Source: Squalus acanthias (Eukaryota). From it: a stretch of DNA of 64,000 nucleotides. The stretch's first letter is position 1. Each line of letters starts with the position of its first letter. Shown here piece by piece: positions 20,322 through 64,000 of the stretch. The stretch covers positions 2,296,001 to 2,360,000 of the forward strand of contig JASTWF010000033.1 in assembly GCA_030390025.1 (NCBI GenBank), read 5' to 3'. Below the pieces are notes generated by a model. It saw nothing but the letters and a program-made list of their open reading frames with translations, searched no databases and had not been told where the DNA came from. Position numbers and translations under genes: made by a program.

Positions 20322-20483
20322 AGCTAGAGTTCACAAAAGGACTTTAATTGGCTGCAGTGCATCATTGCACCTTCTACAAATTCCGTTTCCTTGTCCGTAA
20401 TCCAGCCTGTGCAGCGCATTTCTCCCACAAATCCTCACACCGGCTTCACGTCAAAAATATTCTCCCTCTCACAAACGACATGC

Positions 20484-20872
20484 TCTTTAGCAGTGGCGTC
20501 AGCTGTGACAACTGCCGTTCCCCAAATATCTGTATTGGATCTTCAACTTTTCACCGTATTTATGATTGACTTGGATGGAGCAATTGAGCGCTGTAGATGG
20601 AAGTTTGAAGATTGCCCGAAGTTAGAAGGTCCGGTCGTGGTGCAAATGGGAACGGGAGCAAACCAAAGGGACAGAGACAGATGAAGTAAGCCGGCAAAAC
20701 AATGGCAAATCGAGTTCACTGTGCGCAAGTGTGACACCATCCACCTTGCAACATTATAAGATAGTTCGGAGTATTTTCTAAATAATGGGAGGCTATTAAC
20801 TGTTGAGGAGCAAAGGTTGTTTATGAGTCCCAGTTCACAAATCATTATTAGCCAGTAGACATGCAGCAAAAT
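20484..20872 (+). mobile_element. Decayed CR1 RT fragment A (representative; present in every unit)
   Basis: VTTAVPQISVLDLQLFTVFMIDLDGAIERCRWKFEDCPKLEG...QRDRDR*SKPAKQWQIEFTVRKC corresponds to CR1 VTSGVPQGSVLGPxLFxIFINDLDxGIE...KFADDTKLGG...QRDLDRLxxWAxxWQMxFNxxKC. The catalytic FADD is lost and stops are present. Confidence 0.85.
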
Positions 20873-20874
20873 AC

Positions 20875-21958
20875 AATTTCATTGTCCTGGTTAGGAAATT
20901 GGTTGCGCGACAGGAAACACAGTTTACGGATAATGATCTGTTACTTTATTTGGCAGGATATGACGAGTGGTGTCCCTGAGGGATCTCTTATGTGGCCTCA
21001 TCTATTCACCGATTTTATTAACGACTTACTTGATAGGATTGAGAGCCACACATTCAAGTTTAACGATGACAAAATAGATAGGCGGCATTATAAGCAGTTT
21101 AGGTGGAAGCAAGAAATTTGCCCAGATATTGATAGATTAAGTGAATGGGCAAATCTGTGGCAAATTGATTTAAATATTCGCAAGTGTGATGTCATCCACC
21201 TCGGATCCAAGAAGTGGCGTTCAGAATACACTCTGTATAATGTTAAGATGGAAGCAGTTGAGATCCAAATAGACTTAAGGGTCCATGTAGATATATCATT
21301 AAACGGCCATGGACAGGTACAGAAAAGAATCAAACAGGCTAATTGAAAGGTGATACTTATATCTATAGGATGACAATATAAGGGGGATAAATTATGCCAC
21401 AGCTATACAATGCACTGGTTAGACCACACCTGGAGTACTGTCTACAGTTCTGGGCATCAAACATTAGGAAGGTAATATTAGGCTTAAAAAGTGAAGCATA
21501 GATTTACCAGAATGATTCACAGAGTCCAAGGGACAAATTAGAATGGGAGATTGCACAAACTAGGGATATATTCCCTGGAATTTAGATGCTTAAGGGGCGA
21601 TTTGATTGAAGTATTCACGATATTAAGTGGAACAGATAGTGTCGATAGAGCGAAGGTATTTCGATGATAGGCCCGACTAGGAGTACGGTACACAGATACA
21701 ACATTAGATCCAACCATATCTGGAGAGAAGTTAGGAAAGGCTTCGACATGGAATGGGTGGCAGAAACTTGTAAAGCACTTCCGCAAACAGCAGTTAAAGC
21801 TGGGTCAATTGTCAATGTTATCTTGAGATTGATAGATGTTTGTTAACCAAAGATAGAAAGGGTTCTGGAGCAAAGGGATGCAAACGGAGCTCGATCACAT
21901 CTCTAATTGAAAGGCAGAAAGGTTGGAGCGGTTAAAAGGCCTAGTCCTGTTGTTATTC
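20875..21958 (+). mobile_element. Decayed 5'-truncated CR1 LINE B: RT core, C-terminus and 3' UTR (representative; present in every unit)
   Basis: WLGNWLRDRKH...WQDMTSGVPEGSLMWPHLFTDFINDL...KFNDD; DIDRLSEWANLWQIDLNIRKCDVIHLG; LYNALVRPHLEYCLQFW; LRGDLIEVFTIL. It then has a CR1-type 3' end, AATTGAA.GGCAGAAAGG...AAAAGGCCTAGTCCTGTT. Multiple frameshifts and stops. Confidence 0.92.
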
Positions 21959-22015
21959 TCATTGCTGAAGGATAAGAGCACGAATGTAGAAATGATTATC
22001 GTGATTTAAAAACAG

Positions 22016-22088
22016 CGCCCGAACAGGGACTTGAACCCTGGACCCTCAGATTAAAAGTCTGATGCTCTACCGACTGAACTATCCGGGC
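22016..22088 (-). tRNA. tRNA-Lys(UUU), copy 1, C11U variant
   Basis: Reverse complement GCCCGGATAGTTCAGTCGGTAGAGCATCAGACTTTTAATCTGAGGGTCCAGGGTTCAAGTCCCTGTTCGGGCG. One change from the other copies, at 22078. Confidence 0.95.
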
Positions 22089-23786
22089 ACTTGCTGACTC
22101 AATCTCACAAAAGGACTTTCATTGGCTGCAGTGACTCATTGCACCTTCGACAAATTCCATTTTCTTGTCCATAATCCAGCCTGTGTCGCTCATTTCTCCC
22201 ACAAATCCAGTTTAACTGCCTCAAACCGGCTTCACGCCAGAAATATTCTCCCTCTCACAAGCGACATGCTCTTTAGCAGTGGCGTCAAATGTGACAACTG
22301 CCGTCCCTCAAATATCTGTATTGGATCTTCAACTTTTCACCGTATTTACGATTGACTCGGATGGAGCAATTGAGCGATGTAGATCCAAGTTTGAAGATCG
22401 CACTAAGTTAGAAGGTCCGGTCGTAGTGCAACTGGGAACGGGAGCAAATCAAAGGGACAGAGACAGACGGAGTAAGTCGGCAAAACAAAAGGCAAATCGA
22501 GTTCACTGTGCCCAAGTGTGACTGCATCCACCTTGCAACATTATGAGATAGTTCGGAGTATTTTCTAAATAATTGGAGCCAATTAACTGTTGAGGTGTAA
22601 AGAAGTTTATGAGCCCCAGTTCACAAATCATTAGTAGCTGGCAGACATGGAGCAAAATACAGTTTATTGTCCTCGTTAGGAAATTGTTTGCGCGACAGGA
22701 GACGCAGTTTACGGATAATGATCTGTTACTTTATTTGGCAGGATATGACGAGTGCTGTCCGTGAGGGATCTCTTATGTGGCCTCATCTATTCACCGATTT
22801 TATTAACGACTTACTTGATGGGATTGAGAGCCAAACATTCAAGTTTAATGATGACAAAATAGATAGGCGGCATTATAAGCAGTACAGGTGGAAGCAAGAA
22901 ATTTGCCCAGATATTCATCGATTATGTGAATGGGCAAATCTGTGGCAAATTGATTTAAATATTAGCGAAGTGTGATGTCATCCACTTCGGAAATAAAAAG
23001 GGGCTTTTAGAATACACTCTATACAATGTTAAGCTGGAAACAGTTGAGATCCAAATAGACTTAAGGGTCCATGTACATATATCATTTAATGGTAATGGAC
23101 AGGTACAGAAAAGAATCAAAAAGGCTGAATGAAAGGTGATACTTATATCTATAGGATGACAATATAAGGGGGAGAAATTATGCAACAGCCATACAAAGCA
23201 CTGGTTAGACCACACCTGGAGTACTGTGTGCAGTTCTGGGCATCACACCTTAGTATTAGGCTTAAAAAGTGAAGCGTAGATTTACCAGAATGATACACAG
23301 AGTCCAAGGGACAAATTACAATGGGAGATTGCACAAACTAGGGATATATTCCCTGGAATTTAAATGCTGACGTGGTGATTTGATTGAAGTATTCACGATA
23401 TTAGGTGGAACTGATAGTGTCGATAGAGCGAAGCTATTTCCGATGATTGGCGCGTCTCGGAGTACGGGAGACAGACTCAACATCAGTTCCAAGCCTTTCA
23501 GGAGAGAAGTTAGGAAAGGCTTCGACATGGAATGGGTGGCAGAAATTTGTAACACACTTCCGCAAACAGCATTTAAATCTGGGTCAATTGGCAATGTTAA
23601 ACTTGAGATTGACAGATATTGGTTAACCAAAGTATTAAGGAATCTGGAGCAAAGGGATGCAAACGGAGTTCGATCACAGATCCAATTGAACGGCAGAAAG
23701 GCTCGAGCGGTTGAAATGCCTTGTTCTGTTGTTATTCTCATTGCTGAAGGATCAGAGCACGAATGCAGAAATGAATATCGTCATTC

Positions 23787-23791
23787 AAAAA
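23787..23791 (-). terminator. Pol III T5 terminator (representative; follows every tRNA copy)
   Basis: The minus strand reads ...GGGCG-CTG-TTTTT: a 3-nt trailer followed by five T. Confidence 0.88.
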
Positions 23792-23794
23792 CAG

Positions 23795-23867
23795 CGCCCG
23801 AACAGGGACTTGAACCCTGGACCCTCAGATTAAAAGTCTGATGCTCTACCGACTGAGCTATCCGGGC
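23795..23867 (-). tRNA. tRNA-Lys(UUU), copy 2
   Basis: GCCCGGATAGCTCAGTCGGTAGAGCATCAGACTTTTAATCTGAGGGTCCAGGGTTCAAGTCCCTGTTCGGGCG. 73 nt, full cloverleaf, anticodon TTT, no intron, no encoded CCA. It is the same sequence as the conserved vertebrate tRNA-Lys3. Confidence 0.98.
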
Positions 23868-23870
23868 ACT

Positions 23871-23906
23871 TGCTGACTCAATCTCACAAAAGGACTTTCA
23901 TTGGCT
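23871..23906 (-). promoter_or_regulatory. Candidate upstream motifs of the tRNA gene: AP-1/MARE-like TGCTGACTCA and CCAAT box (representative)
   Basis: TGACTCA at -7..-13 (23874-23880) and AGCCAATGA on the tRNA strand with CCAAT at -37..-33. This is a motif match only. Confidence 0.3.
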
Positions 23907-25560
23907 GCAGTGCATCATTGCACCTTCGACAAATTCCATTTTCTTGTCCATAATCCAGCCTGTGCAGCTCATTTCTCCCACAAATCCAGTTTAACTGCCT
24001 CAAACCGGCTTCACGCCAGAAATATTCTCCCTCTCACAAGCGACATGCTCTTTAGCAGTGGCGTCAAATGTGACAACTGCCGTCCCTCAAATATCTGTAT
24101 TGGATCTTCAACTTTTCACCGTATTTACGATTGACTCGGATGGAGCAATTGAGCGATGTAGATCCAAGTTTGAAGATCGCACTAAGTTAGAAGGTCCGGT
24201 CGTAGTGCAACTGGGAACGGGAGCAAATCAAAGGGACAGAGACAGACGGAGTAAGTCGGCAAAACAAAAGGCAAATCGAGTTCACTGTGCCCAAGTGTGA
24301 CTGCATCCACCTTGCAACATTATGAGATAGTTCGGAGTATTTTCTAAATAATTGGAGCCAATTAACTGTTGAGGTGTAAAGAAGTTTATGAGCCCCAGTT
24401 CACAAATCATTAGTAGCTGGCAGACATGGAGCAAAATACAGTTTATTGTCCTGGTTAGGAAATTGTTTGCGCGACAGGAGACGCAGTTTACGGATAATGA
24501 TCTGTTACTTTATTTGGCAGGATATGACGAGTGCTGTCCGTGAGGGATCTCTTATGTGGCCTCATCTATTCACCGATTTTATTAACGACTTACTTGATGG
24601 GATTGAGAGCCAAACATTCAAGTTTAATGATGACAAAATAGATAGGCGGCATTATAAGCAGTACAGGTGGAAGCAAGAAATTTGCCCAGATATTCATCGA
24701 TTATGTGAATGGGCAAATCTGTGGCAAATTGATTTAAATATTAGCGAAGTGTGATATCATCCACTTCGGAAATAAAAAGGGGCTTTTAGAATACACTCTA
24801 TACAATGTTAAGCTGGAAACAGTTGAGATCCAAATAGACTTAAGGGTCCATGTACATATATCATTTAATGGTAATGGACAGGTACAGAAAAGAATCAAAA
24901 AGGCTGAATGAAAGGTGATACTTATATCTATAGGATGACAATATAAGGGGGAGAAATTATGCAACAGCCATACAAAGCACTGGTTAGACCACACCTGGAG
25001 TACTGTGTGCAGTTCTGGGCGTCACACCTTAGTATTAGGCTTAAAAAGTGAAGCGTAGATTTACCAGAATGATACACAGAGTCCAAGGGACAAATTACAA
25101 TGGGAGATTGCACAAACTAGGGATATATTCCCTGGAATTTAAATGCTGACGTGGTGATTTGATTGAAGTATTCAGGATATTAGGTGGAACTGATAGTGTC
25201 GATAGAGCGTAGCTATTTCCGATGATTGGCCCGCCTAGGAGTACGGGACACAGACTCAACATTAGTTCCAAGCCTTTCAGGAGAGAAGTTAGGAAAGGCT
25301 TCTACATGCAATGAGTGGCAGAAATTTGTAACACACTTCCGCAAACAGCATTTAAATCTGGGTCAATTGGCAATGTTAAACTTGAGATTGACAGATGTTG
25401 GTGAACCAAAGTATGAAGGAATCTGGAGCAAAGGGATGCAAACGGAGTTCGATCGCAGATCCAATTGAACGGCAGAAAGGCTCGAGCGGTTAAAATGCCT
25501 TGTTCTGTTGTTATTCTCATTGCTGAAGGATCAGAAATGAATATCGTCATTCAAAAACAG

Positions 25561-25633
25561 CGCCCGAACAGGGACTTGAACCCTGGACCCTCAGATTAAA
25601 AGTCTGATGCTCTACCGACTGAGCTATCCGGGC
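25561..25633 (-). tRNA. tRNA-Lys(UUU), copy 3
   Basis: Same 73-mer as copy 2, with T5 terminator. Confidence 0.98.
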
Positions 25634-27329
25634 ACTTGCTGACTTAATCTCACAAAAGGACTTTCATTGGCTGCAGTGCATCATTGCACCTTCGACAAAT
25701 TCCATTTTCTGGTCCATAATCCAGCCTGTGCAGCTCATTTCTCCCACAAATCCAGTTTAACTGCCTCAAACCGGCTTCACGCCAGAAATATTCTCCCTCT
25801 CACAAGCGACATGCTCTTTAGCAGTGGCGTCAAATGTGACAACTGCCGTCCCTCAAATATCTGTATTGGATCTTCAACTTTTCACCGTATTTACGATTGA
25901 CTCGGATGGAGCAATTGAGCGATGTAGATCCAAGTTTGAAGATCGCACTAAGTTAGAAGGTCCGGTCGTAGTGCAAATGGGAACGGGAGCAAACCAAAGG
26001 GACAGAGACAGACGAAGTAAGTCGGCAAAACAAAAGGCAAATCGAGTTCACTGTGCCCAAGTGTGACTGCATCCACCTTGCAACATTATGAGATAGTTCG
26101 GAGTATTTTCTAAATAATTGGAAGCTATTAACTGTTGAGGAGTAAAGAGGTTTATGGGCCCCAGTTCACAAATCATTAGTAGCTGGCAGACATGGAGCAA
26201 AATACAGTTTTATTGACCTGGTTAAGAAATTGTTTGCGCGACAGGAGACGCATTTTACGGATAATGATCTGTTACTTTATTTGGCAGGATATGACGAGTG
26301 CTGTCCGTGAGGGATCTCTTATGTGGCCTCATCTATTCACCGATTTTATTAACGACTTACTTGATGGGATTGAGAGGCAAACATTCAAGTTTAATGATGA
26401 CAAAATAGATAGGCGGCATTATAAGCAGTACAGGTGGAAGCAAGAAATTTGCCCAGATATTCATCGATTATGTGAATGGGCAAATCTGTGGCAAATTGAT
26501 TTAAATATTAGCGAAATGTGATGTCATCCACTTCGGAAATAAAAAAGGGCTTTTAGAATACACTCTATACAATGTTAAGCTGGAAACAGTTGAGATCCAA
26601 ATAGACTTAAGGGTCCATGTACATATATCATTTAATGGTCATGGACAGGTACAGAAAAGAATGAAAAAGGCTGAATGAAAGGTGATACTTATGTCTATAG
26701 GATGACAATATAAGGGGGAGAAATTATGAAACAGCCATACAAAGCACTGGTTAGACCACACCTGGAGTACTGTGTGCAGTTCTGGGCATCACACCTTAGT
26801 ATTAGGCTTAAAAAGTGAAGCATAGATTTACCAGAATGATACACAGAGTCCAAGGGACAAATTACAATGGGAGATTGTACAAACTAGGGATATATTCCCT
26901 GGAATTTAAATGCTGACGTGGTGATTTGATTGAAGTATTCACGATATTAGGTGGAACTGATAGTGTCGATAGAGCGAAGCTATTTCCGATGATTGGCCCG
27001 CCTAGGAGTACGGGACACAGACTCAACATTAGTTCCAAGCCTTTCAGGAGAGAAGTTAGGAATGGAATGAGTGGCAGAAATTTGTAACACACTTCCGCAA
27101 ACAGCATTTAAATCTGGGTCAGTTGGCAATGTTAAACTTGAGATTGACAGATGTTGGTTAACCAAAGTATTAAGGAATCTGGAGTAAAGGGATGCAAACG
27201 GAGTTCGATCGCAGATCCAATTGAACGGCAGAAAGGCTCGAGCGGTTAAAATGCCTTGTTCTGTTGTTATTCTCATTGCTGAAGGATCAGAGCACGAATG
27301 CAGAAATGAATATCGTCATTCAAAAACAG

Positions 27330-27402
27330 CGCCCGAACAGGGACTTGAACCCTGGACCCTCAGATTAAAAGTCTGATGCTCTACCGACTGAGCTATCCGG
27401 GC
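27330..27402 (-). tRNA. tRNA-Lys(UUU), copy 4
   Basis: Same 73-mer as copy 2, with T5 terminator. Confidence 0.98.
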
Positions 27403-29109
27403 ACTTGCTGACTCAATCTCACAAAAGGACTTTCATTGGCTGCAGTGCATCATTGCACCTTCGACAAATTCCATTTTCTTGTCCATAATCCAGCCTGTGC
27501 AGCTCATTTCTCCCACAAATCCAGTTTAACTGCCTCAAACCGGCTTCACGCCAGAAATATTCTCCCTCTCACAAGCGACATGCTCTTTAGCAGTGGCGTC
27601 AAATGTGACAACTGCCGTCCCTCAAATATCTGTATTGGATCTTCAACTTTTCACCGTATTTACGATTGACTCGGATGGAGCAATTGAGCGATGTAGATCC
27701 AAGTTTGAAGATCGCACTAAGTTAGAAGGTCCGGTCGTAGTGCAAATGGGAACGGGAGCAAACCAAAGGGACAGAGACAGTCGGAGTAAGTCGGCAAAAC
27801 AAAAGGCAAAACGAGTTCACTGTGCCCAAGTGTGACTGCATCCACCTTGCAACATTATGAGATAGTTCGGAGTATTTTCTAAATAATTGGAACCAATTAA
27901 CTGTTGAGGAGTAAAGAGGTTTATGAGCCCCAGTTCACAAATCATTAGTAGCTGGCAGACATGGAGCAAAATACAGTTTTATTGACCTGGTTAGGAAATT
28001 GTTTGCGCGACAGGAGACGCATTTTACGGATAATGATCTGTTACTTTATTTGGCAGGATATGACGAGTGCTGTCCGTGAGGGATCTCTTATGTGGCCTCA
28101 TCCATTCACCGATTTTATTAACGACTTACTTGATGGGATTGAGAGCCAAACATTCAAGTTTAATGATGACAAAATAGATAGGCGGCATTATAAGCAGTAC
28201 AGGTGGAAGCAAGAAATTTGCCCAGATATTCATCGATTATGTGAATGGGCAAATCTGTGGCAAATTGATTTAAATATTAGCGAAATGTGATGTCATCCAC
28301 TTCGGAAATAAAAAGGGGCTTTTAGAATACACTCTATACAATGTTAAGCTGGAAACAGTTGAGATCCAAATAGACTTAAGGGTCCATGTACATATATCAT
28401 TTAATGGTCATGGACAGGTACAGAAAAGAATGCAAAAGGCTGAATGAAAGGTGATACTTATGTCTATAGGATGACAATATAAGGGGGAGAAATTATGCAA
28501 CAGCCATACAAAGCACTGGTTAGACCACACCTGGAGTACTGTGTGCAGTTCTGGGCATCACACCTTAGTATTAGGCTTAAAAAGTGAAGCGTAGATTTAC
28601 CAGAATGATACACAGAGTCCAAGGGACAAATTACAATGGGAGATTGCACAAACTAGGGATATATTCCTTGGAATTTAAATGCTGACGTGGTGATTTGATT
28701 GAAGTATTCACGATATTAGGTGGAACTGATAGTGTCGATAGAGCGAAGCTATTTCCGATGATTGGCCCGCCTAGGAGTACGGGACACAGACTCAACATTA
28801 GTTCCAAGCCTTTCAGGAGAGAAGTTAGGAAAGGCTTCTACATGCAATGAGTGGCAGAAATTTGTAACACACTTCCGCAAACAGCATTTAAATCTGGGTC
28901 AGTTGGCAATGTTAAACTTGAGATTGACAGATGTTGGTTAACCAAAGTATTAAGGAATCTGGAGCAAAGGGATGCAAACGGAGTTCGATCGCAGATCCAA
29001 TTGAACGGCAGAAAGGCTCGAGCGGTTAAAATGCCTTGTTCTGTTGTTATTCTCATTGCTGAAGGATCAGAGCACGAATGCAGAAATGAATATCGTCATT
29101 CAAAAACAG

Positions 29110-29182
29110 CGCCCGAACAGGGACTTGAACCCTGGACCCTCAGATTAAAAGTCTGATGCTCTACCGACTGAGCTATCCGGGC
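29110..29182 (-). tRNA. tRNA-Lys(UUU), copy 5
   Basis: Same 73-mer as copy 2, with T5 terminator. Confidence 0.98.
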
Positions 29183-30887
29183 ACTTGCTGACTCAATCTC
29201 ACAAAAGGACTTTCATTGGCTGCAGTGCATCATTGCACCTTCGACAAATTCCATTTTCTTGTCCATAATCCAGCCTGTGCAGCTCATTTCTCCACAAATC
29301 CAGTTTAACTGCCTCAAACCGGCTTCACGCCAGAAATATTCTCCCTCTCACAAGCGACATGCTCTTTAGCAGTGGCGTCAAATGTGACAACTGCCGTCCC
29401 TCAAATATCTGTATTGGATCTTCAACTTTTCACCGTATTTACGATTGACTCGGATGGAGCAATTGAGCGATGTAGATCCAAGTTTGAAGATCGCACTAAG
29501 TTAGAAGGTCCGGTCGTAGTGCAAATGGGAACGGGAGCAAACCAAAGGGACAGAGACAGTCGGAGTAAGTCGGCAAAACAAAAGGCAAAACGAGTTCACT
29601 GTGCCCAAGTGTGACTGCATCCACCTTGCAACATTATGAGATAGTTCGGAGTATTTTCTAAATAATTGGAACCAATTAACTGTTGAGGAGTAAAGAGGTT
29701 TATGAGCCCCAGTTCACAAATCATTAGTAGCTGGCAGACATGGAGCAAAATACAGTTTTATTGACCTGGTTAGGAAATTGTTTGCGCGACAGGAGACGCA
29801 TTTTACGGATAATGATCTGAACTTTATTTGGCAGGATATGACGAGTGCTGTCCGTGAGGGATCTCTTATGTGGCCTCATCCATTCACCGATTTTATTAAC
29901 GACTTACTTGATGGGATTGAGAGCCAAACATTCAAGTTTAATGATGACAAAATAGATAGGCGGCATTATAAGCAGTACAGGTGGAAGCAAGAAATTTGCC
30001 CAGATATTCATCGATTATGTGAATGGGCAAATCTGTGGCAAATTGATTTAAATATTAGCGAAATGTGATGTCATCCACTTCGGAAATAAAAAGGGGCTTT
30101 TAGAATACACTCTATACAATGTTAAGCTGGAAACAGTTGAGATCCAAATAGACTTAAGGGTCCATGTACATATATCATTTAATGGTCATGGACAGGTACA
30201 GAAAGGAATGAAAAAGGCTGAATGAAAGGTGATACTTATGTCTATAGGATGACAATATAAGGGGGAGAAATTATGCAACAGCCATACAAAGCACTGGTTA
30301 GACCACACCTGGAGTACTGTGTGCAGTTCTGGGCATCACACCTTAGTATTAGGCTTAAAAAGTGAAGCTTAGATTTACCAGAATGATACACAGAGTCCAA
30401 GGGACAAATTACAATGGGAGATTGCACAAACTAGGGATATATTCCTTGGAATTTAAATGCTGACGTGGTGATTTGATTGAAGTATTCACGATATTAGGTG
30501 GAACTGATAGTGTCGATAGAGCGAAGCTATTTCCGATGATTGGCCCGCCTAGGAGTACGGGACACAGACTCAACATTAGTTCCAAGCCTTTCAGGAGAGA
30601 AGTTAGGAAAGGCTTCTACATGCAATGAGTGGCAGAAATTTGTAACACACTTCCGCAAACAGCATTTAAATCTGGGTCAGTTGGCAATGTTAAACTTGAG
30701 ATTGACAGATGTTGGTTAACCAAAGTATTAAGGAATCTGGAGCAAAGGGATGCAAACGGAGTTCGATCGCAGATCCAATTGAACGGCAGAAAGGCTCGAG
30801 CGGTTAAAATGCCTTGTTCTGTTGTTATTCTCATTGCTGAAGGATCAGAGCACGAATGCAGAAATGAATATCGTCATTCAAAAACAG

Positions 30888-30960
30888 CGCCCGAACAGGG
30901 ACTTGAACCCTGGACCCTCAGATTAAAAGTCTGATGCTCTACCGACTGAGCTATCCGGGC
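30888..30960 (-). tRNA. tRNA-Lys(UUU), copy 6
   Basis: Same 73-mer as copy 2, with T5 terminator. Confidence 0.98.
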
Positions 30961-32656: not shown

Positions 32657-32729
32657 CGCCCGAACAGGGACTTGAACCCTGGACCCTCAGATTAAAAGTC
32701 TGATGCTCTACCGACTGAGCTATCCGGGC
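32657..32729 (-). tRNA. tRNA-Lys(UUU), copy 7
   Basis: Same 73-mer as copy 2, with T5 terminator. Confidence 0.98.
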
Positions 32730-34425: not shown

Positions 34426-34498
34426 CGCCCGAACAGGGACTTGAACCCTGGACCCTCAGATTAAAAGTCTGATGCTCTACCGACTGAGCTATCCGGGC
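34426..34498 (-). tRNA. tRNA-Lys(UUU), copy 8
   Basis: Same 73-mer as copy 2, with T5 terminator. Confidence 0.98.
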
Positions 34499-36205: not shown

Positions 36206-36278
36206 CGCCCGAACAGGGACTTGAACCCTGGACCCTCAGATTAAAAGTCTGATGCTCTACCGACTGAGCTATCCGGGC
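36206..36278 (-). tRNA. tRNA-Lys(UUU), copy 9
   Basis: Same 73-mer as copy 2, with T5 terminator. Confidence 0.98.
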
Positions 36279-37985: not shown

Positions 37986-38058
37986 CGCCCGAACAGGGAC
38001 TTGAACCCTGGACCCTCAGATTAAAAGTCTGATGCTCTACCGACTGAGCTATCCGGGC
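37986..38058 (-). tRNA. tRNA-Lys(UUU), copy 10
   Basis: Same 73-mer as copy 2, with T5 terminator. Confidence 0.98.
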
Positions 38059-46851: not shown

Positions 46852-46924
46852 CGCCCGAACAGGGACTTGAACCCTGGACCCTCAGATTAAAAGTCTGATG
46901 CTCTACCGACTGAGCTATCCGGGC
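46852..46924 (-). tRNA. tRNA-Lys(UUU), copy 15
   Basis: Same 73-mer as copy 2, with T5 terminator. Confidence 0.98.
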
Positions 46925-48631: not shown

Positions 48632-48704
48632 CGCCCGAACAGGGACTTGAACCCTGGACCCTCAGATTAAAAGTCTGATGCTCTACCGACTGAGCTATCC
48701 GGGC
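48632..48704 (-). tRNA. tRNA-Lys(UUU), copy 16
   Basis: Same 73-mer as copy 2, with T5 terminator. Confidence 0.98.
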
Positions 48705-50399: not shown

Positions 50400-50472
50400 C
50401 GCCCGAACAGGGACTTGAACCCTGGACCCTCAGATTAAAAGTCTGATGCTCTACCGACTGAGCTATCCGGGC
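50400..50472 (-). tRNA. tRNA-Lys(UUU), copy 17
   Basis: Same 73-mer as copy 2, with T5 terminator. Confidence 0.98.
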
Positions 50473-52177: not shown

Positions 52178-52250
52178 CGCCCGAACAGGGACTTGAACCC
52201 TGGACCCTCAGATTAAAAGTCTGATGCTCTACCGACTGAGCTATCCGGGC
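52178..52250 (-). tRNA. tRNA-Lys(UUU), copy 18
   Basis: Same 73-mer as copy 2, with T5 terminator. Confidence 0.98.
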
Positions 52251-53954: not shown

Positions 53955-54027
53955 CGCCCGAACAGGGACTTGAACCCTGGACCCTCAGATTAAAAGTCTG
54001 ATGCTCTACCGACTGAGCTATCCGGGC
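53955..54027 (-). tRNA. tRNA-Lys(UUU), copy 19
   Basis: Same 73-mer as copy 2, with T5 terminator. Confidence 0.98.
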
Positions 54028-55730
54028 ACTTGCTGACTCAATCTCACAAAAGGACTTTCATTGGCTGCAGTGCATCATTGCACCTTCGACAAATTCCATT
54101 TTCTTGTCCATAATCCAGCCTGTGCAGCTCATTTCTCCCACAAATCCAGTTTAACTGCCTCAAACCGGCTTCACGCCAGAAATATTCTCCCTCTCACAAG
54201 CGACATGCTCTTTAGCAGTGGCGTCAAATGTGACAACTGCCGTCCCTCAAATATCTGTATTGGATCTTCAACTTTTCACCGTATTTACGATTGACTCGGA
54301 TGGAGCAATTGAGCGATGTAGATCCAAGTTTGAAGATCGCACTAAGTTAGAAGGTCCGGTCGTAGTGCAAATGGGAACGGGAGCAAACCAAAGGGACAGA
54401 GACAGACGGAGTAAGTCCGCAAAACAAAAGGCAAATCGAGTTCACTGTGCCCAAGTGTGACTGCATCCACCTTGCAACATTATGAGATAGTTCGGAGTAT
54501 TTTCTAATAATTGGAACCAATTAACTGTTGAGGAGTAAAGAGGTTTATGAGCCCCAGTTCACAAATCATTAGTAGCTGGCAGACATGGAGCAAAATACAG
54601 TTTTATTGACCTGGTTAGGAAATTGTTTGCGCGACAGGAGACGCATTTTACGGATAATGATCTGAACTTTATTTGGCAGGATATGACGAGTGCTGTCCGT
54701 GAGGGATCTCTTATGTGGCCTCATCCATTCACCGATTTTATTAACGACTTACTTGATGGGATTGAGAGCCAAACATTCAAGTTTAATGATGACAAAATAG
54801 ATAGGCGGCATTATAAGCAGTACAGGTGGAAGCAAGAAATTTGCCCAGATATTCATCGATTATGTGAATGGGCAAATCTGTGGCAAATTGATTAAATATT
54901 AGCGAAATGTGATGTCATCCACTTCGGAAATAAAAAGGGGCTTTTAGAATACACTCTATACAATGTTAAGCTGGAAACAGTTGAGATCCAAATAGACTTA
55001 AGGTCCATGTACATATATCATTTAATGGTCATGGACAGGTACAGAAAAGAATGAAAAAGGCTGAATGAAAGGTGATACTTATGTCTATAGGATGACAATA
55101 TAAGGGGGAGAAATTATGCAACAGCCATACAAAGCACTGGTTAGACCACACCTGGAGTACTGTGTGCAGTTCTGGGCATCACACCTTAGTATTAGGCTTA
55201 AAAAGTGAAGCGTAGATTTACCAGAATGATACACAGAGTCCAAGGGACAAATTACAATGGGAGATTGCACAAACTAGGGATATATTCCTTGGAATTTAAA
55301 TGCTGACGTGGTGATTTGATTGAAGTATTCACGATATTAGGTGGAACTGATAGTGTCGATAGAGCGAAGCTATTTCCGATGATTGGCCCGCCTAGGAGTA
55401 CGGGACACAGACTCAACATTAGTTCCAAGCCTTTCAGGAGAGAAGTTTGGAAAGGCTTCTACATGGAATGAGTGGCAGAAATTTGTAACACACTTCCGCA
55501 AACAGCATTTAAATCTGGGTCAGTTGGCAATGTTAAACTTGAGATTGACAGATGTTGGTTAACCAAAGTATTAAGGAATCTGGAGCAAAGGGATGCAAAC
55601 GGAGTTCGATCGCAGATCCAATTGAACGGCAGAAAGGCTCGAGCGGTTAAAATGCCTTGTTCTGTTGTTATTCTCATTGCTGAAGGATCAGAGCACGAAT
55701 GCAGAAATGAATATCGTCATTCAAAAACAG

Positions 55731-55803
55731 CGCCCGAACAGGGACTTGAACCCTGGACCCTCAGATTAAAAGTCTGATGCTCTACCGACTGAGCTATCCG
55801 GGC
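55731..55803 (-). tRNA. tRNA-Lys(UUU), copy 20
   Basis: Same 73-mer as copy 2, with T5 terminator. Confidence 0.98.
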
Positions 55804-57510
55804 ACTTGCTGACTCAATCTCACAAAAGGACTTTCATTGGCTGCAGTGCATCATTGCACCTTCGACAAATTCCATTTTCTTGTCCATAATCCAGCCTGTG
55901 CAGCTCATTTCTCCCACAAATCCAGTTTAACTGCCTCAAACCGGCTTCACGCCAGAAATATTCTCCCTCTCACAAGCGACATGCTCTTTAGCAGTGGCGT
56001 CAAATGTGACAACTGCCGTCCCTCAAATATCTGTATTGGATCTTCAACTTTTCACCGTATTTACGATTGACTCGGATGGAGCAATTGAGCGATGTAGATC
56101 CAAGTTTGAAGATCGCACTAAGTTAGAAGGTCCGGTCGTAGTGCAAATGGGAACGGGAGCAAACCAAAGGGACAGAGACAGACGGAGTAAGTCGGCAAAA
56201 CAAAAGGCAAATCGAGTTCACTGTGCCCAAGTGTGACTGCATCCACCTTGCAACATTATGAGATAGTTCGGAGTATTTTCTAAATAATTGGAACCAATTA
56301 ACTGTTGAGGAGTAAAGAGGTTTATGAGCCCCAGTTCACAAATCATTAGTAGCTGGCAGACATGGAGCAAAATACAGTTTTATTGACCTGGTTAGGAAAT
56401 TGTTTGCGCGACAGGAGACGCATTTTACGGATAATGATCTGTTACTTTATTTGGCAGGATATGACGAGTGCTGTCCGTGAGGGATCTCTTATGTGGCCTC
56501 ATCCATTCACCGATTTTATTAACGACTTACTTGATGGGATTGAGAGCCAAACATTCAAGTTTAATGATGACAAAATAGATAGGCGGCATTATAAGCAGTA
56601 CAGGTGGAAGCAAGAAATTTGCCCAGATATTCATCGATTATGTGAATGGGCAAATCTGTGGCAAATTGATTTAAATATTAGCGAAATGTGATGTCATCCA
56701 CTTCGGAAATAAAAAGGGGCTTTTAGAATACACTCTATACAATGTTAAGCTGGAAACAGTTGAGATCCAAATAGACTTAAGGGTCCATGTACATATATCA
56801 TTTAATGGTCATGGACAGGTACAGAAAAGAATGAAAAAGGCTGAATGAAAGGTGATACTTATGTCTATAGGATGACAATATAAGGGGGAGAAATTATGCA
56901 ACAGCCATACAAAGCACTGGTTAGACCACACCTGGAGTACTGTGTGCAGTTCTGGGCATCACACCTTAGTATTAGGCTTAAAAAGTGAAGCGTAGATTTA
57001 CCAGAATGATACACAGAGTCCAAGGGACAAATTACAATGGGAGATTGCACAAACTAGGGATATATTCCTTGGAATTTAAATGCTGACGTGGTGATTTGAT
57101 TGAAGTATTCACGATATTAGGTGGAACTGATAGTGTCGATAGAGCGAAGCTATTTCCGATGATTGGCCCGCCTAGGAGTACGGGACACAGACTCAACATT
57201 AGTTCCAAGCCTTTCAGGAGAGAAGTTAGGAAAGGCTTCTACATGGAATGAGTGGCAGAAATTTGTAACACACTTCCGCAAACAGCATTTAAATCTGGGT
57301 CAGTTGGCAATGTTAAACTTGAGATTGACAGATGTTGGTTAACCAAAGTATTAAGGAATCTGGAGCAAAGGGATGCAAACGGAGTTCGATCGCAGATCCA
57401 ATTGAACGGCAGAAAGGCTCGAGCGGTTAAAATGCCTTGTTCTGTTGTTATTCTCATTGCTAAAGGATCAGAGCACGAATGCAGAAATGAATATCGTCAT
57501 TCAAAAACAG

Positions 57511-57583
57511 CGCCCGAACAGGGACTTGAACCCTGGACCCTCAGATTAAAAGTCTGATGCTCTACCGACTGAGCTATCCGGGC
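57511..57583 (-). tRNA. tRNA-Lys(UUU), copy 21
   Basis: Same 73-mer as copy 2, with T5 terminator. Confidence 0.98.
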
Positions 57584-59289
57584 ACTTGCTGACTCAATCT
57601 CACAAAAGGACTTTCATTGGCTGCAGTGCATCATTGCACCTTCGACAAATTCCATTTTCTTGTCCATAATCCAGCCTGTGCAGCTCATTTCTCCCACAAA
57701 TCCAGTTTAACTGCCTCAAACCGGCTTCACGCCAGAAATATTCTCCCTCTCACAAGCGACATGCTCTTTAGCAGTGGCGTCAAATGTGACAACTGCCGTC
57801 CCTCAAATATCTGTATTGGATCTTCAACTTTTCACCGTATTTACGATTGACTCGGATGGAGCAATTGAGCGATGTAGATCCAAGTTTGAAGATCGCACTA
57901 AGTTAGAAGGTCCGGTCGTAGTGCAAATGGGAACGGGAGCAAACCAAAGGGACAGAGACAGACGGAGTAAGTCGGCAAAACAAAAGGCAAATCGAGTTCA
58001 CTGTGCCCAAGTGTGACTGCATCCACCTTGCAACATTATGAGATAGTTCGGAGTATTTTCTAAATAATTGGAACCAATTAACTGTTGAGGAGTAAAGAGG
58101 TTTATGAGCCCCAGTTCACAAATCATTAGTAGCTGGCAGACATGGAGCAAAATACAATTTTATTGACCTGGTTAGGAAATTGTTTGCGCGACAGGAGACG
58201 CATTTTACGGATAATGATCTGTTACTTTATTTGGCAGGATATGACGAGTGCTGTCCGTGAGGGATCTCTTATGTGGCCTCATCCATTCACCGATTTTATT
58301 AACGACTTACTTGATGGGATTGAGAGCCAAACATTCAAGTTTAATGATGACAAAATAGATAGGCGGCATTATAAGCAGTACAGGTGGAAGCAAGAAATTT
58401 GCCCAGATATTCATCGATTATGTGAATGGGCAAATCTGTGGCAAATTGATTGAAATATTAGCGAAATGTGATGTCATCCACTTCGGAAATAAAAAGGGGC
58501 TTTTAGAATACACTCTATACAATGTTAAGCTGGAAACAGTTGAGATCCAAATAGACTTAAGGTCCATGTACATATATCATTTAATGGTCATGGACAGGTA
58601 CAGAAAAGAATGAAAAAGGCTGAATGAAAGGTGATACTTATGTCTATAGGATGACAATATAAGGGGGAGAAATTATGCAACAGCCATACAAAGCACTGGT
58701 TAGACCACACCTGGAGTACTGTGTGCAGTTCTGGGCATCACACCTTAGTATTAGGCTTAAAAGTGAAGCGTAGATTTACCAGAATGATACACAGAGTCCA
58801 AGGGACAAATTACAATGGGAGATTGCACAAACTAGGGATATATTCCTTGGAATTTAAATGCTGACGTGGTGATTTGATTGAAGTATTCACGATATTAGGT
58901 GGAACTGATAGTGTCGATAGAGCGAAGCTATTTCCGATGATTGGCCCGCCTAGGAGTACGGGACACAGACTCAACATTAGTTCCAAGCCTTTCAGGAGAG
59001 AAGTTAGGAAAGGCTTCTACATGGAATGAGTGGCAGAAATTTGTAACACACTTCCGCAAACAGCATTTAAATCTGGGTCAGTTGGCAATGTTAAACTTGA
59101 GATTGACAGATGTTGGTTAACCAAAGTATTAAGGAATCTGGAGCAAAGGGATGCAAACGGAGTTCGATCGCAGATCCAATTGAACGGCAGAAAGGCTCGA
59201 GCGGTTAAAATGCCTTGTTCTGTTGTTATTCTCATTGCTGAAAGGATCAGAGCACGAATGCAGAAATGAATATCGTCATTCAAAAACAG

Positions 59290-59362
59290 CGCCCGAACAG
59301 GGACTTGAACCCTGGACCCTCAGATTAAAAGTCTGATGCTCTACCGACTGAGCTATCCGGGC
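59290..59362 (-). tRNA. tRNA-Lys(UUU), copy 22
   Basis: Same 73-mer as copy 2, with T5 terminator. Confidence 0.98.
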
Positions 59363-61066
59363 ACTTGCTGACTCAATCTCACAAAGGACTTTCATTGGCT
59401 GCAGTGCATCATTGCACCTTCGACAAATTCCATTTTCTTGTCCATAATCCAGCCTGTGCAGCTCATTTCTCCCACAAATCCAGTTTAACTGCCTCAAACC
59501 GGCTTCACGCCAGAAATATTCTCCCTCTCACAAGCGACATGCTCTTTAGCAGTGGCGTCAAATGTGACAACTGCCGTCCCTCAAATATCTGTATTGGATC
59601 TTCAACTTTTCACCGTATTTACGATTGACTCGGATGGAGCAATTGAGCGATGTAGATCCAAGTTTGAAGATCGCACTAAGTTAGAAGGTCCGGTCGTAGT
59701 GCAAATGGGAACGGGAGCAAACCAAAGGGACAGAGACAGACGGAGTAAGTCGGCAAAACAAAAGGCAAATCGAGTTCACTGTGCCCAAGTGTGACTGCAT
59801 CCACCTTGCAACATTATGAGATAGTTCGGAGTATTTTCTAAATAATTGGAACCAATTAACTGTTGAGGAGTAAAGAGGTTTATGAGCCCCAGTTCACAAA
59901 TCATTAGTAGCTGGCAGACATGGAGCAAAATACAGTTTTATTGACCTGGTTAGGAAATTGTTTGCGCGACAGGAGACGCATTTTACGGATAATGATCTGT
60001 TACTTTATTTGGCAGGATATGACGAGTGCGTCCGTGAGGGATCTCTTATGTGGCCTCATCCATTCACCGATTTTATTAACGACTTACTTGATGGGATTGA
60101 GAGCCAAACATTCAAGTTTAATGATGACAAAATAGATAGGCGGCATTATAAGCAGTACAGGTGGAAGCAAGAAATTTGCCCAGATATTCATCGATTATGT
60201 GAATGGCAAATCTGTGGCAAATTGATTTAAATATTAGCGAAATGTGATGTCATCCACTTCGGAAATAAAAAGGGGCTTTTAGAATACACTCTATACAATG
60301 TTAAGCTGGAAACAGTTGAGATCCAAATAGACTTAAGGGTCCATGTACATATATCATTTAATGGTCATGGACAGGTACAGAAAAGAATGAAAAAGGCTGA
60401 ATGAAAGGTGATACTTATGTCTATAGGATGACAATATAAGGGGGAGAAATTATGCAACAGCCATACAAAGCACTGGTTAGACCACACCTGGAGTACTGTG
60501 TGCAGTTCTGGGCATCACACCTTAGTATTAGGCTTAAAAAGTGAAGCGTAGATTTACCAGAATGATACACAGAGTCCAAGGGACAAATTACAATGGGAGA
60601 TTGCACAAACTAGGGATATATTCCTTGGAATTTAAATGCTGACGTGGTGATTTGATTGAAGTATTCACGATATTAGGTGGAACTGATAGTGTCGATAGAG
60701 CGAAGCTATTTCCGATGATTGGCCCGCCTAGGAGTACGGGACACAGACTCAACATTAGTTCCAAGCCTTTCAGGAGAGAAGTTAGGAAAGGCTTCTACAT
60801 GGAATGAGTGGCAGAAATTTGTAACACACTTCCGCAAACAGCATTTAAATCTGGGTCAGTTGGCAATGTTAAACTTGAGATTGACAGATGTTGGTTAACC
60901 AAAGTATTAAGGAATCTGGAGCAAAGGGATGCAAACGGAGTTCGATCGCAGATCCAATTGAACGGCAGAAAGGCTCGAGCGGTTAAAATGCCTTGTTCTG
61001 TTGTTATTCTCATTGCTAAAGGATCAGAGCACGAATGCAGAAATGAATATCGTCATTCAAAAACAG

Positions 61067-61139
61067 CGCCCGAACAGGGACTTGAACCCTGGACCCTCAG
61101 ATTAAAAGTCTGATGCTCTACCGACTGAGCTATCCGGGC
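61067..61139 (-). tRNA. tRNA-Lys(UUU), copy 23
   Basis: Same 73-mer as copy 2, with T5 terminator. Confidence 0.98.
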
Positions 61140-62846
61140 ACTTGCTGACTCAATCTCACAAAAGGACTTTCATTGGCTGCAGTGCATCATTGCACCTTCG
61201 ACAAATTCCATTTTCTTGTCCATAATCCAGCCTGTGCAGCTCATTTCTCCCACAAATCCAGTTTAACTGCCTCAAACCGGCTTCACGCCAGAAATATTCT
61301 CCCTCTCACAAGCGACATGCTCTTTAGCAGTGGCGTCAAATGTGACAACTGCCGTCCCTCAAATATCTGTATTGGATCTTCAACTTTTCACCGTATTTAC
61401 GATTGACTCGGATGGAGCAATTGAGCGATGTAGATCCAAGTTTGAAGATCGCACTAAGTTAGAAGGTCCGGTCGTAGTGCAAATGGGAACGGGAGCAAAC
61501 CAAAGGGACAGAGACAGACGGAGTAAGTCGGCAAAACAAAAGGCAAATCGAGTTCACTGTGCCCAAGTGTGACTGCATCCACCTTGCAACATTATGAGAT
61601 AGTTCGGAGTATTTTCTAAATAATTGGAACCAATTAACTGTTGAGGAGTAAAGAGGTTTATGAGCCCCAGTTCACAAATCATTAGTAGCTGGCAGACATG
61701 GAGCAAAATACAGTTTTATTGACCTGGTTAGGAAATTGTTTGCGCGACAGGAGACGCATTTTACGGATAATGATCTGTTACTTTATTTGGCAGGATATGA
61801 CGAGTGCTGTCCGTGAGGGATCTCTTATGTGGCCTCATCTATTCACCGATTTTATTAACGACTTACTTGATGGGATTGAGAGCCAAACATTCAAGTTTAA
61901 TGATGACAAAATAGATAGGCGGCATTATAAGCAGTACAGGTGGAAGCAAGAAATTTGCCCAGATATTCATCGATTATGTGAATGGGCAAATCTGTGGCAA
62001 ATTGATTTAAATATTAGCGAAATGTGATGTCATCCACTTCGGAAATAAAAAGGGGCTTTTAGAATACACTCTATACAATGTTAAGCTGGAAACAGTTGAG
62101 ATCCAAATAGACTTAAGGGTCCATGTACATATATCATTTAATGGTCATGGACAGGTACAGAAAAGAATGAAAAAGGCTGAATGAAAGGTGATACTTATGT
62201 CTATAGGATGACAATATAAGGGGGAGAAATTATGCAACAGCCATACAAAGCACTGGTTAGACCACACCTGGAGTACTGTGTGCAGTTCTGGGCATCACAC
62301 CTTAGTATTAGGCTTAAAAAGTGAAGCGTAGATTTACCAGAATGATACACAGAGTCCAAGGGACAAATTACAATGGGAGATTGCACAAACTAGGGATATA
62401 TTCCTTGGAATTTAAATGCTGACGTGGTGATTTGATTGAAGTATTCACGATATTAGGTGGAACTGATAGTGTCGATAGAGCGAAGCTATTTCCGATGATT
62501 GGCCCGCCTAGGAGTACGGGACACAGACTCAACATTAGTTCCAAGCCTTTCAGGAGAGAAGTTAGGAAAGGCTTCTACATGGAATGAGTGGCAGAAATTT
62601 GTAACACACTTCCGCAAACAGCATTTAAATCTGGGTCAGTTGGCAATGTTAAACTTGAGATTGACAGATGTTGGTTAACCAAAGTATTAAGGAATCTGGA
62701 GCAAAGGGATGCAAACGGAGTTCGATCGCAGATCCAATTGAACGGCAGAAAGGCTCGAGCGGTTAAAATGCCTTGTTCTGTTGTTATTCTCATTGCTAAA
62801 GGATCAGAGCACGAATGCAGAAATGAATATCGTCATTCAAAAACAG

Positions 62847-62919
62847 CGCCCGAACAGGGACTTGAACCCTGGACCCTCAGATTAAAAGTCTGATGCTCTA
62901 CCGACTGAGCTATCCGGGC
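62847..62919 (-). tRNA. tRNA-Lys(UUU), copy 24
   Basis: Same 73-mer as copy 2, with T5 terminator. Confidence 0.98.
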
Positions 62920-64000
62920 ACTTGCTGACTCAATCTCACAAAAGGACTTTCATTGGCTGCAGTGCATCATTGCACCTTCGACAAATTCCATTTTCTTGTC
63001 CATAATCCAGCCTGTGCAGCTCATTTCTCCCACAAATCCAGTTTAACTGCCTCAAACCGGCTTCACGCCAGAAATATTCTCCCTCTCACAAGCGACATGC
63101 TCTTTAGCAGTGGCGTCAAATGTGACAACTGCCGTCCCTCAAATATCTGTATTGGATCTTCAACTTTTCACCGTATTTACGATTGACTCGGATGGAGCAA
63201 TTGAGCGATGTAGATCCAAGTTTGAAGATCGCACTAAGTTAGAAGGTCCGGTCGTAGTGCAAATGGGAACGGGAGCAAACCAAAGGGACAGAGACAGACG
63301 GAGTAAGTCGGCAAACAAAAGGCAAATCGAGTTCACTGTGCCCAAGTGTGACTGCATCCACCTTGCAACATTATGAGATAGTTCGGAGTATTTTCTAAAT
63401 AATTGGAACCAATTAACTGTTGAGGAGTAAAGAGGTTTATGAGCCCCAGTTCACAAATCATTAGTAGCTGGCAGACATGGAGCAAAATACAATTTTATTG
63501 ATCTGGTTAGGAAATTGTTTGCGCGACAGGAGACGCATTTTACGGATAATGATCTGTTACTTTATTTGGCAGGATATGACGAGTGCCGTCCGTGAGGGAT
63601 CTCTTATGTGGCCTCATCCATTCACCGATTTTATTAACGACTTACTTGATGGGATTGAGAGCCAAACATTCAAGTTTAATGATGACAAAATAGATAGGCG
63701 GCATTATAAGCAGTACAGGTGGAAGCAAGAAATTTGCCCAGATATTCATCGATTATGTGAATGGGCAAATCTGTGGCAAATTGATTTAAATATTAGCGAA
63801 ATGTGATGTCATCCACTTCGGAAATAAAAAGGGGCTTTTAGAATACACTCTATACAATGTTAAGCTGGAAACAGTTGAGATCCAAATAGACTTAAGGGTC
63901 CATGTACATATATCATTTAATGGTCATGGACAGGTACAGAAAAGAATGAAAAAGGCTGAATGAAAGGTGATACTTATGTCTATAGGATGACAATATAAGG

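What the first reader, a model, noticed from the sequence alone, without database searches (positions are those of the whole stretch)
20331..64000. Single-isotype tRNA-Lys(UUU) macrosatellite built on a fossil CR1 LINE scaffold
Seen: at least 24 intact tRNA-Lys(UUU) genes, one per ~1.78-kb unit, each with A/B boxes and a T5 terminator. About 1.47 kb of each unit is dead CR1 sequence. Spacers vary between units, while 23 of 24 tRNAs appear identical. Known: tandem tRNA repeats exist in Xenopus and teleosts, so arrays as such are not new. Inference: a tRNA gene and neighbouring LINE debris were co-amplified and homogenised like rDNA or 5S arrays. This would give a high dose of one AAA-decoding tRNA, perhaps for oocytes or embryos. 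I do not know a description of this unit.
Basis: partly seen in the sequence, partly recalled or inferred. Interest (0 to 1): 0.75.

Follow-up and report, generated by a model that had tools for sequence, protein, structure and literature searches.

The report
Shark tandem arrays of lysine tRNA
A lysine tRNA gene, wrapped in fragments of dead jumping genes, is repeated head to tail 43 times here and several hundred times in this likely shark genome, and its mutation pattern suggests that the copies are, or recently were, read in germ cells; such arrays are a known kind, and this genome has one for a valine tRNA too.

Summary
In detail: 24 tRNA-Lys(UUU) genes, period 1,766-1,780 bp, 23 identical, each followed by five Ts; about 1.44 kb of each unit is two dead LINE 3' fragments. 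The array has 43 genes and is one of at least 20 segmentally duplicated arrays (about 350 units; 166 exact copies of the gene). Invariance inside the window alone is weak evidence. Across 176 units, new tRNA mutations are in excess (75 vs 49 expected), yet none reaches 10 copies (0 vs 5.6). The 20 bases upstream are hypervariable (38 vs 16), peaking at -8 to -15, the published footprint of transcribed tRNA genes. CpG decay is low. Old single-copy paralogs differ 13-14% in spacer but mostly 1-2 bases in the tRNA. So the unit is likely transcribed in the germline and intact copies seed each expansion, while older arrays decay. Not supported: an AAA-specific or LINE-dependent role, since a separate tRNA-Val(AAC) array with LINE debris exists. 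No expression data. The scan had no note on this DNA; it noted an initiator-Met/Leu tRNA array in this genome. New member of a known kind.

The parts
20321..64000 (.). Tandem array of 1.78-kb units, one tRNA-Lys(UUU) gene per unit; 24 genes in the window, 43 in the whole array (G000:C2561 about 2,316,321-2,392,936)
22016..22088 (-). First tRNA-Lys gene, one substitution (C11T); its unit is an old edge unit, 7.9% from the array majority, and groups with first units of other arrays
29110..29182 (-). Representative tRNA-Lys(UUU) gene (unit 5); A box about 29164-29175, B box about 29121-29131; 23 identical copies in the window, 166 exact copies in the assembly
   Evidence: box positions follow standard tRNA numbering (8-19, 52-62)
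29102..29106 (-). Run of five T, predicted Pol III terminator (four T in most other arrays)
29183..29202 (-). Inner 5' flank (-1 to -20), the most variable 20 bases of the unit across arrays; variants peak at -8 to -15
27605..27956 (+). LINE fragment A (reverse-transcriptase region, dead), unit positions 203-554
   Evidence: tblastn; 57-58% similar to fragment B
27979..29069 (+). LINE fragment B (reverse-transcriptase end, C-terminal part and probable 3' UTR, dead), unit positions 577 to about 1667, tail to tail with the tRNA gene; the 3' limit is approximate
62847..62919 (-). Last tRNA-Lys gene inside the window; the array goes on for 19 more genes
2056..20320 (.). 34-bp satellite (about 538 copies) that joins the array about 6 bases upstream of a lost first tRNA gene; neighbour, not part of the unit

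Best explanation
This is a tandem array of one tRNA-Lys(UUU) gene and its chance LINE-fragment neighbours, one of at least 20 segmentally duplicated arrays, whose genes are likely transcribed by RNA polymerase III in the germline and likely turn over by birth and death. Shown: the unit, its copy number, its spread with shared flanks, array-wise homogenisation with diverged edge units, and the three mutation signatures below. Inferred: unequal crossover or gene conversion grows and shrinks each array; germline transcription causes the excess of new mutations in the gene and at -8 to -15; single copies are redundant and decay, but only lineages with an intact gene spread, most simply because selection keeps a large working pool of tRNA genes in general, not of the AAA reader in particular. 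The window's array is a recent expansion (38 of 42 genes intact, T4 turned into T5).
For: Across 176 full units (185 extracted, 9 with 8 or more tRNA substitutions set aside), with expectations matched for base class: tRNA alleles in 1-4 units 75 vs 48.8 (P 3e-4); in 10 or more units 0 vs 5.6 (P 0.0035; with the 9 units kept, 1 vs 6.2, P 0.014); inner 5' flank 38 vs 15.8 (P 1.5e-6), and none of 997 clean 20-nt spacer windows is as variable. This matches active tRNA loci in PMC6130373 (passages read: conserved body, about twice the rare variants, 5' flank peak 12-15 nt upstream). The excess also shows within four single arrays (P 0.004, 0.003, 0.005, 1e-5). Array majorities differ at 0 of 73 tRNA columns and 154 of 1,704 spacer columns (P 0.002). 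Seven single-copy paralogs in three lineages are 12.7-14.2% diverged in spacer; six differ by 1-2 bases in the tRNA (about 10 expected), one by 6. CpG transition excess is 1.0-1.6-fold in three arrays against 2.9-3.8-fold in three controls (odds ratios 1.23 vs 3.27, P 0.004), as expected of DNA unmethylated in the germline. Flanks are shared between arrays at 93-99%; first units group together and last units group together, cores group by array. A and B boxes match the majority in 41 of 43 units of this array.
Against: No transcript or Pol III occupancy data: three probable RNA runs of the best-holding organism held next to none of the words (library types not given, no proof of absence). In older arrays the tRNA mutates as fast as or faster than the spacer (identical copies 3 of 17, 1 of 7, 0 of 4, 0 of 3, 0 of 3), so there is no per-copy constraint. 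In the core of this array the six flank alleles are about four events (P 0.013), and every one also occurs in another array, so they could have been imported by conversion. The inner 3' flank shows no excess (10 vs 7.5) and singletons in the 5' flank none (8 vs 8.2). The young Val arrays show neither signature (45 units, low power). In zebrafish embryos most clustered tRNA genes are methylated and closed, and copy number does not predict tRNA level (PMC11574265, passages). Poisson tests treat alleles as independent, which conversion violates; some arrays may be duplicate haplotypes.
Confidence: 0.55

Rival explanations
1. Transcription-driven amplification without selection for dose: only copies that bind the Pol III machinery stall replication forks and recombine, so intact genes seed expansions as a by-product, and the extra tRNA is not needed.
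For: Fits every sequence result: rare tRNA mutations not depleted, common ones absent, neutral decay of old arrays, an independent Val array. Two rearrangement junctions fall at the gene's start (satellite junction at -6; L034 junction at +1). Fork pausing at tRNA genes needs the pre-initiation complex in yeast (PMC8194067, passages).
Against: Most other array breakpoints lie away from the gene (unit positions 229, 253, 508, 684, 1153, 1167, 1203). Fork stalling at these genes is not shown; conservation in single-copy paralogs is simplest as ordinary selection. Asn(GTT) and Cys(GCA) genes are many but showed no regular short-period arrays in what was seen.
Confidence: 0.2
2. Silent passenger today: the array sits in heterochromatin between satellites; the signatures were earned when the ancestor had one or a few active copies and are carried along or re-imported by gene conversion.
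For: Flanked by a 34-bp and a 54-bp satellite; 84 of 185 units carry a changed tRNA; core flank alleles are shared with other arrays; zebrafish clusters are mostly methylated and closed in embryos (PMC11574265); at least four dispersed identical genes with unrelated flanks could supply the tRNA.
Against: Rare (recent) tRNA variants are in excess, and the flank excess holds inside four separate arrays; CpG decay is low inside arrays but normal in adjoining duplicated flanks.
Confidence: 0.15
3. One reading: a dedicated high dose of the AAA-decoding tRNA for oocytes or embryos, like oocyte-type 5S genes.
For: 166 exact copies against 4-5 dispersed genes on large chromosomes; heritable signs of transcription must arise in the germline; maternal-type tRNA genes are hypothesised for zebrafish chromosome 4 (PMC11075544, passages).
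Against: Val(AAC) is amplified alike (161 hits of a 25-mer, one-gene arrays); sharks have many tRNA loci in general (bioRxiv 2025.06.08.657570, section 6); the array gene is identical to the dispersed genes, not an oocyte-type variant; no stage data.
Confidence: 0.07
4. Chromatin barrier: the tRNA genes are kept to bound the neighbouring satellites.
For: Satellites on both sides; barrier activity is discussed for the human 1q23.3 tRNA repeat (PMC4041453, discussion).
Against: The 34-bp satellite was seen beside this array only; other arrays have different left flanks; the whole gene, not only the boxes, is conserved.
Confidence: 0.03

Closest known systems
Human 1q23.3 tRNA variable-number tandem repeat (Darrow and Chadwick 2014, PMC4041453; abstract and discussion read)
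   Same: [quoted passage not shown]
   Different: There a 7.3-kb GC-rich unit with several isotypes (Leu, Gly, Glu, Asp) at one locus; here a 1.78-kb, 42% GC unit with one gene, a spacer of LINE debris, and at least 20 loci. No CTCF site was tested.
Xenopus laevis 3.18-kb tandem repeat with 8 tRNA genes (title seen only in the reference list of PMC1635290; the paper itself was not held)
   Same: Tandemly reiterated tRNA genes in an egg-laying vertebrate.
   Different: Eight genes per unit there, one here; oocyte expression (recalled for Xenopus) is untested here.
Shark and ray tRNA expansions and clusters (Squalomix, bioRxiv 10.1101/2025.06.08.657570; passages and section 6 read)
   Same: Sharks have unusually many tRNA loci, clustered on a few chromosomes; larger genomes have more.
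   Different: The main text gives counts and a 300-locus cluster, with no unit structure, no mention of CR1 or satellites (0 hits) and no test of activity. Its supplements could not be seen and may list Lys(TTT) counts.
Zebrafish chromosome 4 tRNA clusters (PMC11574265 and PMC11075544; passages read)
   Same: Massive tRNA gene amplification in a repeat-rich region with NLR and zinc-finger genes nearby; function debated.
   Different: Mostly methylated and closed in embryos; the shark units show low CpG decay and a transcription footprint.
Entamoeba tRNA arrays (PMC2652664; search listing and start of abstract only)
   Same: tRNA genes in homogeneous tandem arrays, units of up to 5 genes.
   Different: Spacers are short tandem repeats, nearly all tRNA genes are arrayed; here spacers are LINE fragments and dispersed genes persist.

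Membership tests
Tandem tRNA gene array (tDNA repeat) | Head-to-tail units, each with a canonical tRNA gene | tested here: met
Tandem tRNA gene array (tDNA repeat) | Homogenised units, copy number varying between loci | tested here: met
   core 0.1-0.7% diverged, edges up to 7.9%; 3 to at least 43 units per locus
Tandem tRNA gene array (tDNA repeat) | tRNA conserved relative to spacer | tested here: met
   met for amplified alleles and old paralogs; not met copy by copy in older arrays
Tandem tRNA gene array (tDNA repeat) | Copy-number variation between individuals | not testable with these tools
   one assembly; contig depth is no copy number
Active Pol III type-2 gene | Intact A box, B box and a run of at least four T | tested here: met
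   41 of 43 units with both boxes as majority; T5 in 42 of 43
Active Pol III type-2 gene | Mutation footprint of transcription (hypervariable inner 5' flank, excess rare variants) | tested here: met
   inner 3' flank excess not seen
Active Pol III type-2 gene | Pol III occupancy or pre-tRNA detected | not testable with these tools
   no raw small-RNA or ChIP run offered
Oocyte-type multigene family (like oocyte 5S) | Sequence variant distinct from the somatic gene | tested here: not met
   array gene identical to four dispersed genes
Oocyte-type multigene family (like oocyte 5S) | Oocyte-restricted transcription | not testable with these tools
   no stage-resolved data
LINE (non-LTR retrotransposon) remnant | Homology to a reverse transcriptase of dispersed endonuclease-RT elements | tested here: met
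CR1 clade | Placement with CR1 references; 3' end with short terminal repeat shared with partner SINE | tested here: inconclusive
   no repeat library; C-terminal motif recognised from recall; 3'-end match to a neighbouring SINE tail scored 74, equal to the best of 500 shuffles
tRNA-derived SINE or tRNA-headed LINE | tRNA-like head and LINE tail on one strand, no terminator between, dispersed copies | tested here: not met
   gene and LINE fragments are on opposite strands, a T-run follows the gene, copies are tandem and move with flanks

The most novel reading that the evidence does not exclude
Active tRNA genes are themselves the engine of these arrays: germline Pol III complexes make the unit recombinogenic, so any transcribed tRNA gene in this repeat-rich compartment can found a one-gene array with whatever debris surrounds it. 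That would explain the shark excess of tRNA loci as transcription-driven self-amplification, with the arrays recording their own germline activity in a mutation footprint.
Probability: 0.2. Interest if true: 0.7.

Novelty: new member of a known kind. Interest (0 to 1): 0.42.

Why it matters
Whether the thousands of amplified tRNA genes of fishes and sharks are used or are passengers is open: zebrafish embryo data say mostly silent, others propose a maternal set. This family gives a sequence-only test with hundreds of replicates and an internal neutral control (dead LINE spacer), and the answer leans to germline activity with birth-and-death turnover. Array-specific leaders and trailers (T5 here, T4 elsewhere) make the question directly testable by pre-tRNA sequencing. 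The unit itself is not described in the papers my ten searches reached, but the kind is known and the LINE content is incidental.

Tried and rejected
Direct Pfam scan of the six frames of a unit: no family; the LINE call needed dispersed copies. tRNA invariance within the window as proof of selection: rejected as weak. A first test on 127 units with alleles in 5 or more units was not significant (10 vs 8.2) until the decayed terminal units were set aside; the 10-or-more class is significant either way. SINE or tRNA-headed LINE: rejected by strand and terminator. Assembly artefact: unlikely, since units carry shared variants and an edge gradient, though arrays 0.2-0.7% apart (C3623, C2208, C1484, C29:11.7 Mb) may include duplicate haplotypes, so the total of about 350 units (281 hits of a spacer 20-mer matched by 163 of 202 units) is rough. 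Conservation of the tRNA itself and tandem order in other species remain open, because only the spacer was laid. The Val arrays gave no signal either way. The genome-wide RF00005 search scores only top candidates and gave no census; no Lys(CUU) count was made. Match of the LINE 3' end to a SINE tail: inconclusive. PMC10468316 had no tRNA or CR1 text.
Full report
Observation. ARAGORN finds 24 tRNA-Lys(TTT) genes on the minus strand between 22016 and 62919. They are spaced 1,766-1,780 bp apart; 23 are identical, the first has one change, and all 24 are followed by five Ts. Rfam confirms the first three (window 1-26000). To the left lies a 34-bp satellite, 2056-20320, which joins the array at 20321, about 6 bases upstream of where other arrays have one more tRNA gene. 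The window lies in a 3.7-Gb genome, at G000:C2561:2,296,001-2,360,000. That it is a shark or ray is inferred from recalled repeat types and from earlier scan notes, not tested.

The unit. A Pfam scan of six frames found nothing. Dispersed LINE copies from large chromosomes carry PF00078 and PF14529; their reverse-transcriptase pieces hit the unit at 203-554 and 577-1208, best E 1e-16 against 0.007 for the best of 20 shuffles, and DNA similarity runs to about 1650. So about 1.44 kb is two dead LINE 3' fragments on the strand opposite to the gene (26-30 stops per frame). The name CR1 is recalled from motifs. LINE debris is common around unrelated tRNA genes too: 5 of 10 control loci of 8-10 kb had over 1,300 bases of RT-like sequence.

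Extent. The array holds 43 genes over about 76.6 kb. The 73-base gene has 166 exact matches in the assembly. A spacer 20-mer has 281 matches; 163 of 202 extracted units match it, giving about 350 units, a rough figure because collapsed or duplicated haplotypes are possible. I saw tandem units at more than 20 places on C29, C2561 and small scaffolds. Arrays share flanks at 93-99% on the left and 85-98% on the right, share a decayed last gene with anticodon TGT (six by ARAGORN, one more by alignment), and in a spacer tree of 42 rows first units group together, two last units group together, and cores group by array. In this array divergence from the majority falls from 7.9% at the left edge to 0.1-0.7% in the core and rises to 3.5% at the right edge. 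This is what segmental duplication followed by separate homogenisation gives; unequal crossover or conversion as the process is inferred. At least four identical genes with unrelated flanks lie singly on C1, C11, C13 and C17.

Is the gene under constraint? Within the window the evidence is weak: 19% of 1,748 spacer windows are as invariant, Poisson P 0.037. Across arrays I extracted 202 units from 212 gene positions, kept 185 of full length, and set aside 9 with 8 or more tRNA substitutions. In 176 units, with expectation matched for A/T, G/C and CpG sites, tRNA alleles in 1-4 units number 75 against 48.8, in 5-9 units 5 against 4.8, in 10 or more units 0 against 5.6; with the 9 kept the last class is 1 against 6.2. 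Majorities of 11 array segments differ at 0 of 73 tRNA columns and 154 of 1,704 spacer columns. Seven single-copy paralogs (three lineages, so not seven independent tests) are 12.7-14.2% diverged in spacer; their tRNAs differ by 1, 1, 1, 1, 1, 2 and 6 bases where about 10 are expected; a decayed copy on C7 has 6 of 71 against 17.7%. Against per-copy constraint: only 101 of 185 units carry the identical gene; this array has 38 of 42, but others 3 of 17, 1 of 7, 0 of 4, 0 of 3 and 0 of 3, with tRNA changes at or above the spacer rate. So single copies decay freely, while the alleles that spread are intact.

Is it transcribed? No direct data. PMC6130373 (passages) reports that active tRNA genes have a conserved body, about twice the rare variants, and a divergent 5' flank peaking 12-15 bases upstream. 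Here the 20 bases upstream carry 38 alleles against 15.8 expected, more than any of 997 clean spacer windows, with all four bases at -1, -8, -9, -10, -11, -12 and -15. The excess holds inside four arrays separately (6 vs 1.5, 9 vs 2.9, 6 vs 1.5, 13 vs 3.0). In the 37 core units of this array all six flank alleles lie at -8 to -14, but they amount to about four events (P 0.013) and each also occurs in another array, so import by conversion is possible. Singletons in the 5' flank (8 vs 8.2) and the 3' flank (10 vs 7.5) show no excess. CpG transitions are 1.6, 1.1 and 1.0 times the non-CpG rate in three arrays and 0.9 in single-copy paralogs, against 3.3, 3.8 and 2.9 in a neighbouring duplicated block, the arrays' own left flank and dispersed LINEs (pooled P 0.004), which suggests low germline methylation. 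Heritable footprints must arise in the germline; they do not say which sex or stage, nor what share of copies is active now. The Poisson tests assume independent alleles.

Other species. Twenty public runs from 12 studies hold part of the unit, under eight coded organism labels. I laid the spacer only, on 4 of them, from four other labels: 26, 30, 30 and 26 of 30 bins are covered, with contigs such as 498 bases with 12 differences, 916 with 28, 407 with 12 and 363 with 13. So this particular spacer is shared at about 97% with several other labelled organisms; whether it is tandem there and whether the gene is kept is left open.

Is Lys(UUU) special? No. A 25-mer of tRNA-Val(AAC) has 161 matches, many at a 1,422-bp period; these are one-gene arrays of 18 and at least 20 units on C460 and C3398, unrelated to the Lys unit except for LINE debris. 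Asn(GTT) has 55 matches of a 28-mer with no short regular period, and Cys(GCA) genes cluster irregularly on C13. An earlier scan note reports an initiator-Met and Leu array in this genome (not checked). Sharks are known to have many tRNA loci (bioRxiv 2025.06.08.657570, passages and section 6; supplements not seen).

Mechanism and rivals. Most likely (0.55): germline-transcribed, redundant tRNA genes in arrays that turn over by birth and death, with selection keeping intact lineages. [quoted passage not shown] The first two share germline transcription, which I put at about 0.8.

Comparison and verdict. It works like, and meets the tested features of, vertebrate tandem tRNA arrays (human 1q23.3; Xenopus 3.18-kb repeat, title only). 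It differs by one gene per unit, a LINE-debris spacer and many loci. It is not a SINE and not an oocyte-type variant gene. Ten literature searches found no description of this unit; the library lacks most subscription journals. The scan's own index had no look-alike. New member of a known kind; interest 0.42, mainly because it makes the use of amplified fish and shark tRNA genes testable.

Noticed in passing
L126-L134 (G000 C460:689.6-714 kb and 28-37 kb, C3398:158-186 kb, C26:39.44 Mb, C1989:12-15 kb): Independent one-gene tRNA-Val(AAC) tandem arrays, period 1,422 bp, 99-100% identical, with LINE debris in the spacer; two units on C460 read Val(CAC), an anticodon switch inside an array.
   Followed up: partly
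window 2056-20320: 34-bp satellite of about 538 copies with strong strand skew; it joins the array about 6 bases upstream of a lost tRNA gene.
   Followed up: partly
L017:2634-2707, L020:2398-2471, L023:3626-3699, L038:891-964, L119:8975-9048, L121:6867-6940: The last gene of many Lys arrays is one shared decayed copy with 9 substitutions, anticodon TGT (called Thr by ARAGORN) and no terminator; a marker of common descent that inflates tRNA-Thr counts.
   Followed up: yes
L021:6599-6672, L049:6628-6701, L105:5575-5648, L136:247-320: Decaying Lys copies whose anticodon now reads TTC, TTA (stop) or TAT; possible mistranslating or ochre-reading tRNAs if transcribed, but most carry other changes.
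   Followed up: no
L034:3000-5190 and window 500-2056: A segmentally duplicated block seen left of the satellite; in L034 a tRNA-Lys gene with 500 bases of trailer is joined into it exactly at the gene's first base, followed by a SINE; decayed Asn-like and Val genes lie nearby.
   Followed up: partly
L017:4286-5979 (right of the array): 54-bp satellite shared by the right flanks of several arrays.
   Followed up: no
L106-L112 (G000 C13:6.8-8.4 Mb and 32.2 Mb): Irregular cluster of tRNA-Cys(GCA) genes, 14 seen in seven 10-kb stretches.
   Followed up: no
L085 / L135 (G000 C5:88.2 Mb) and L031 (C11:109.9 Mb): Dispersed tRNA-Lys genes that share 40-55 bases of trailer with the array unit at about 91%; possible relatives of the founder or conversion products.
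   Followed up: no
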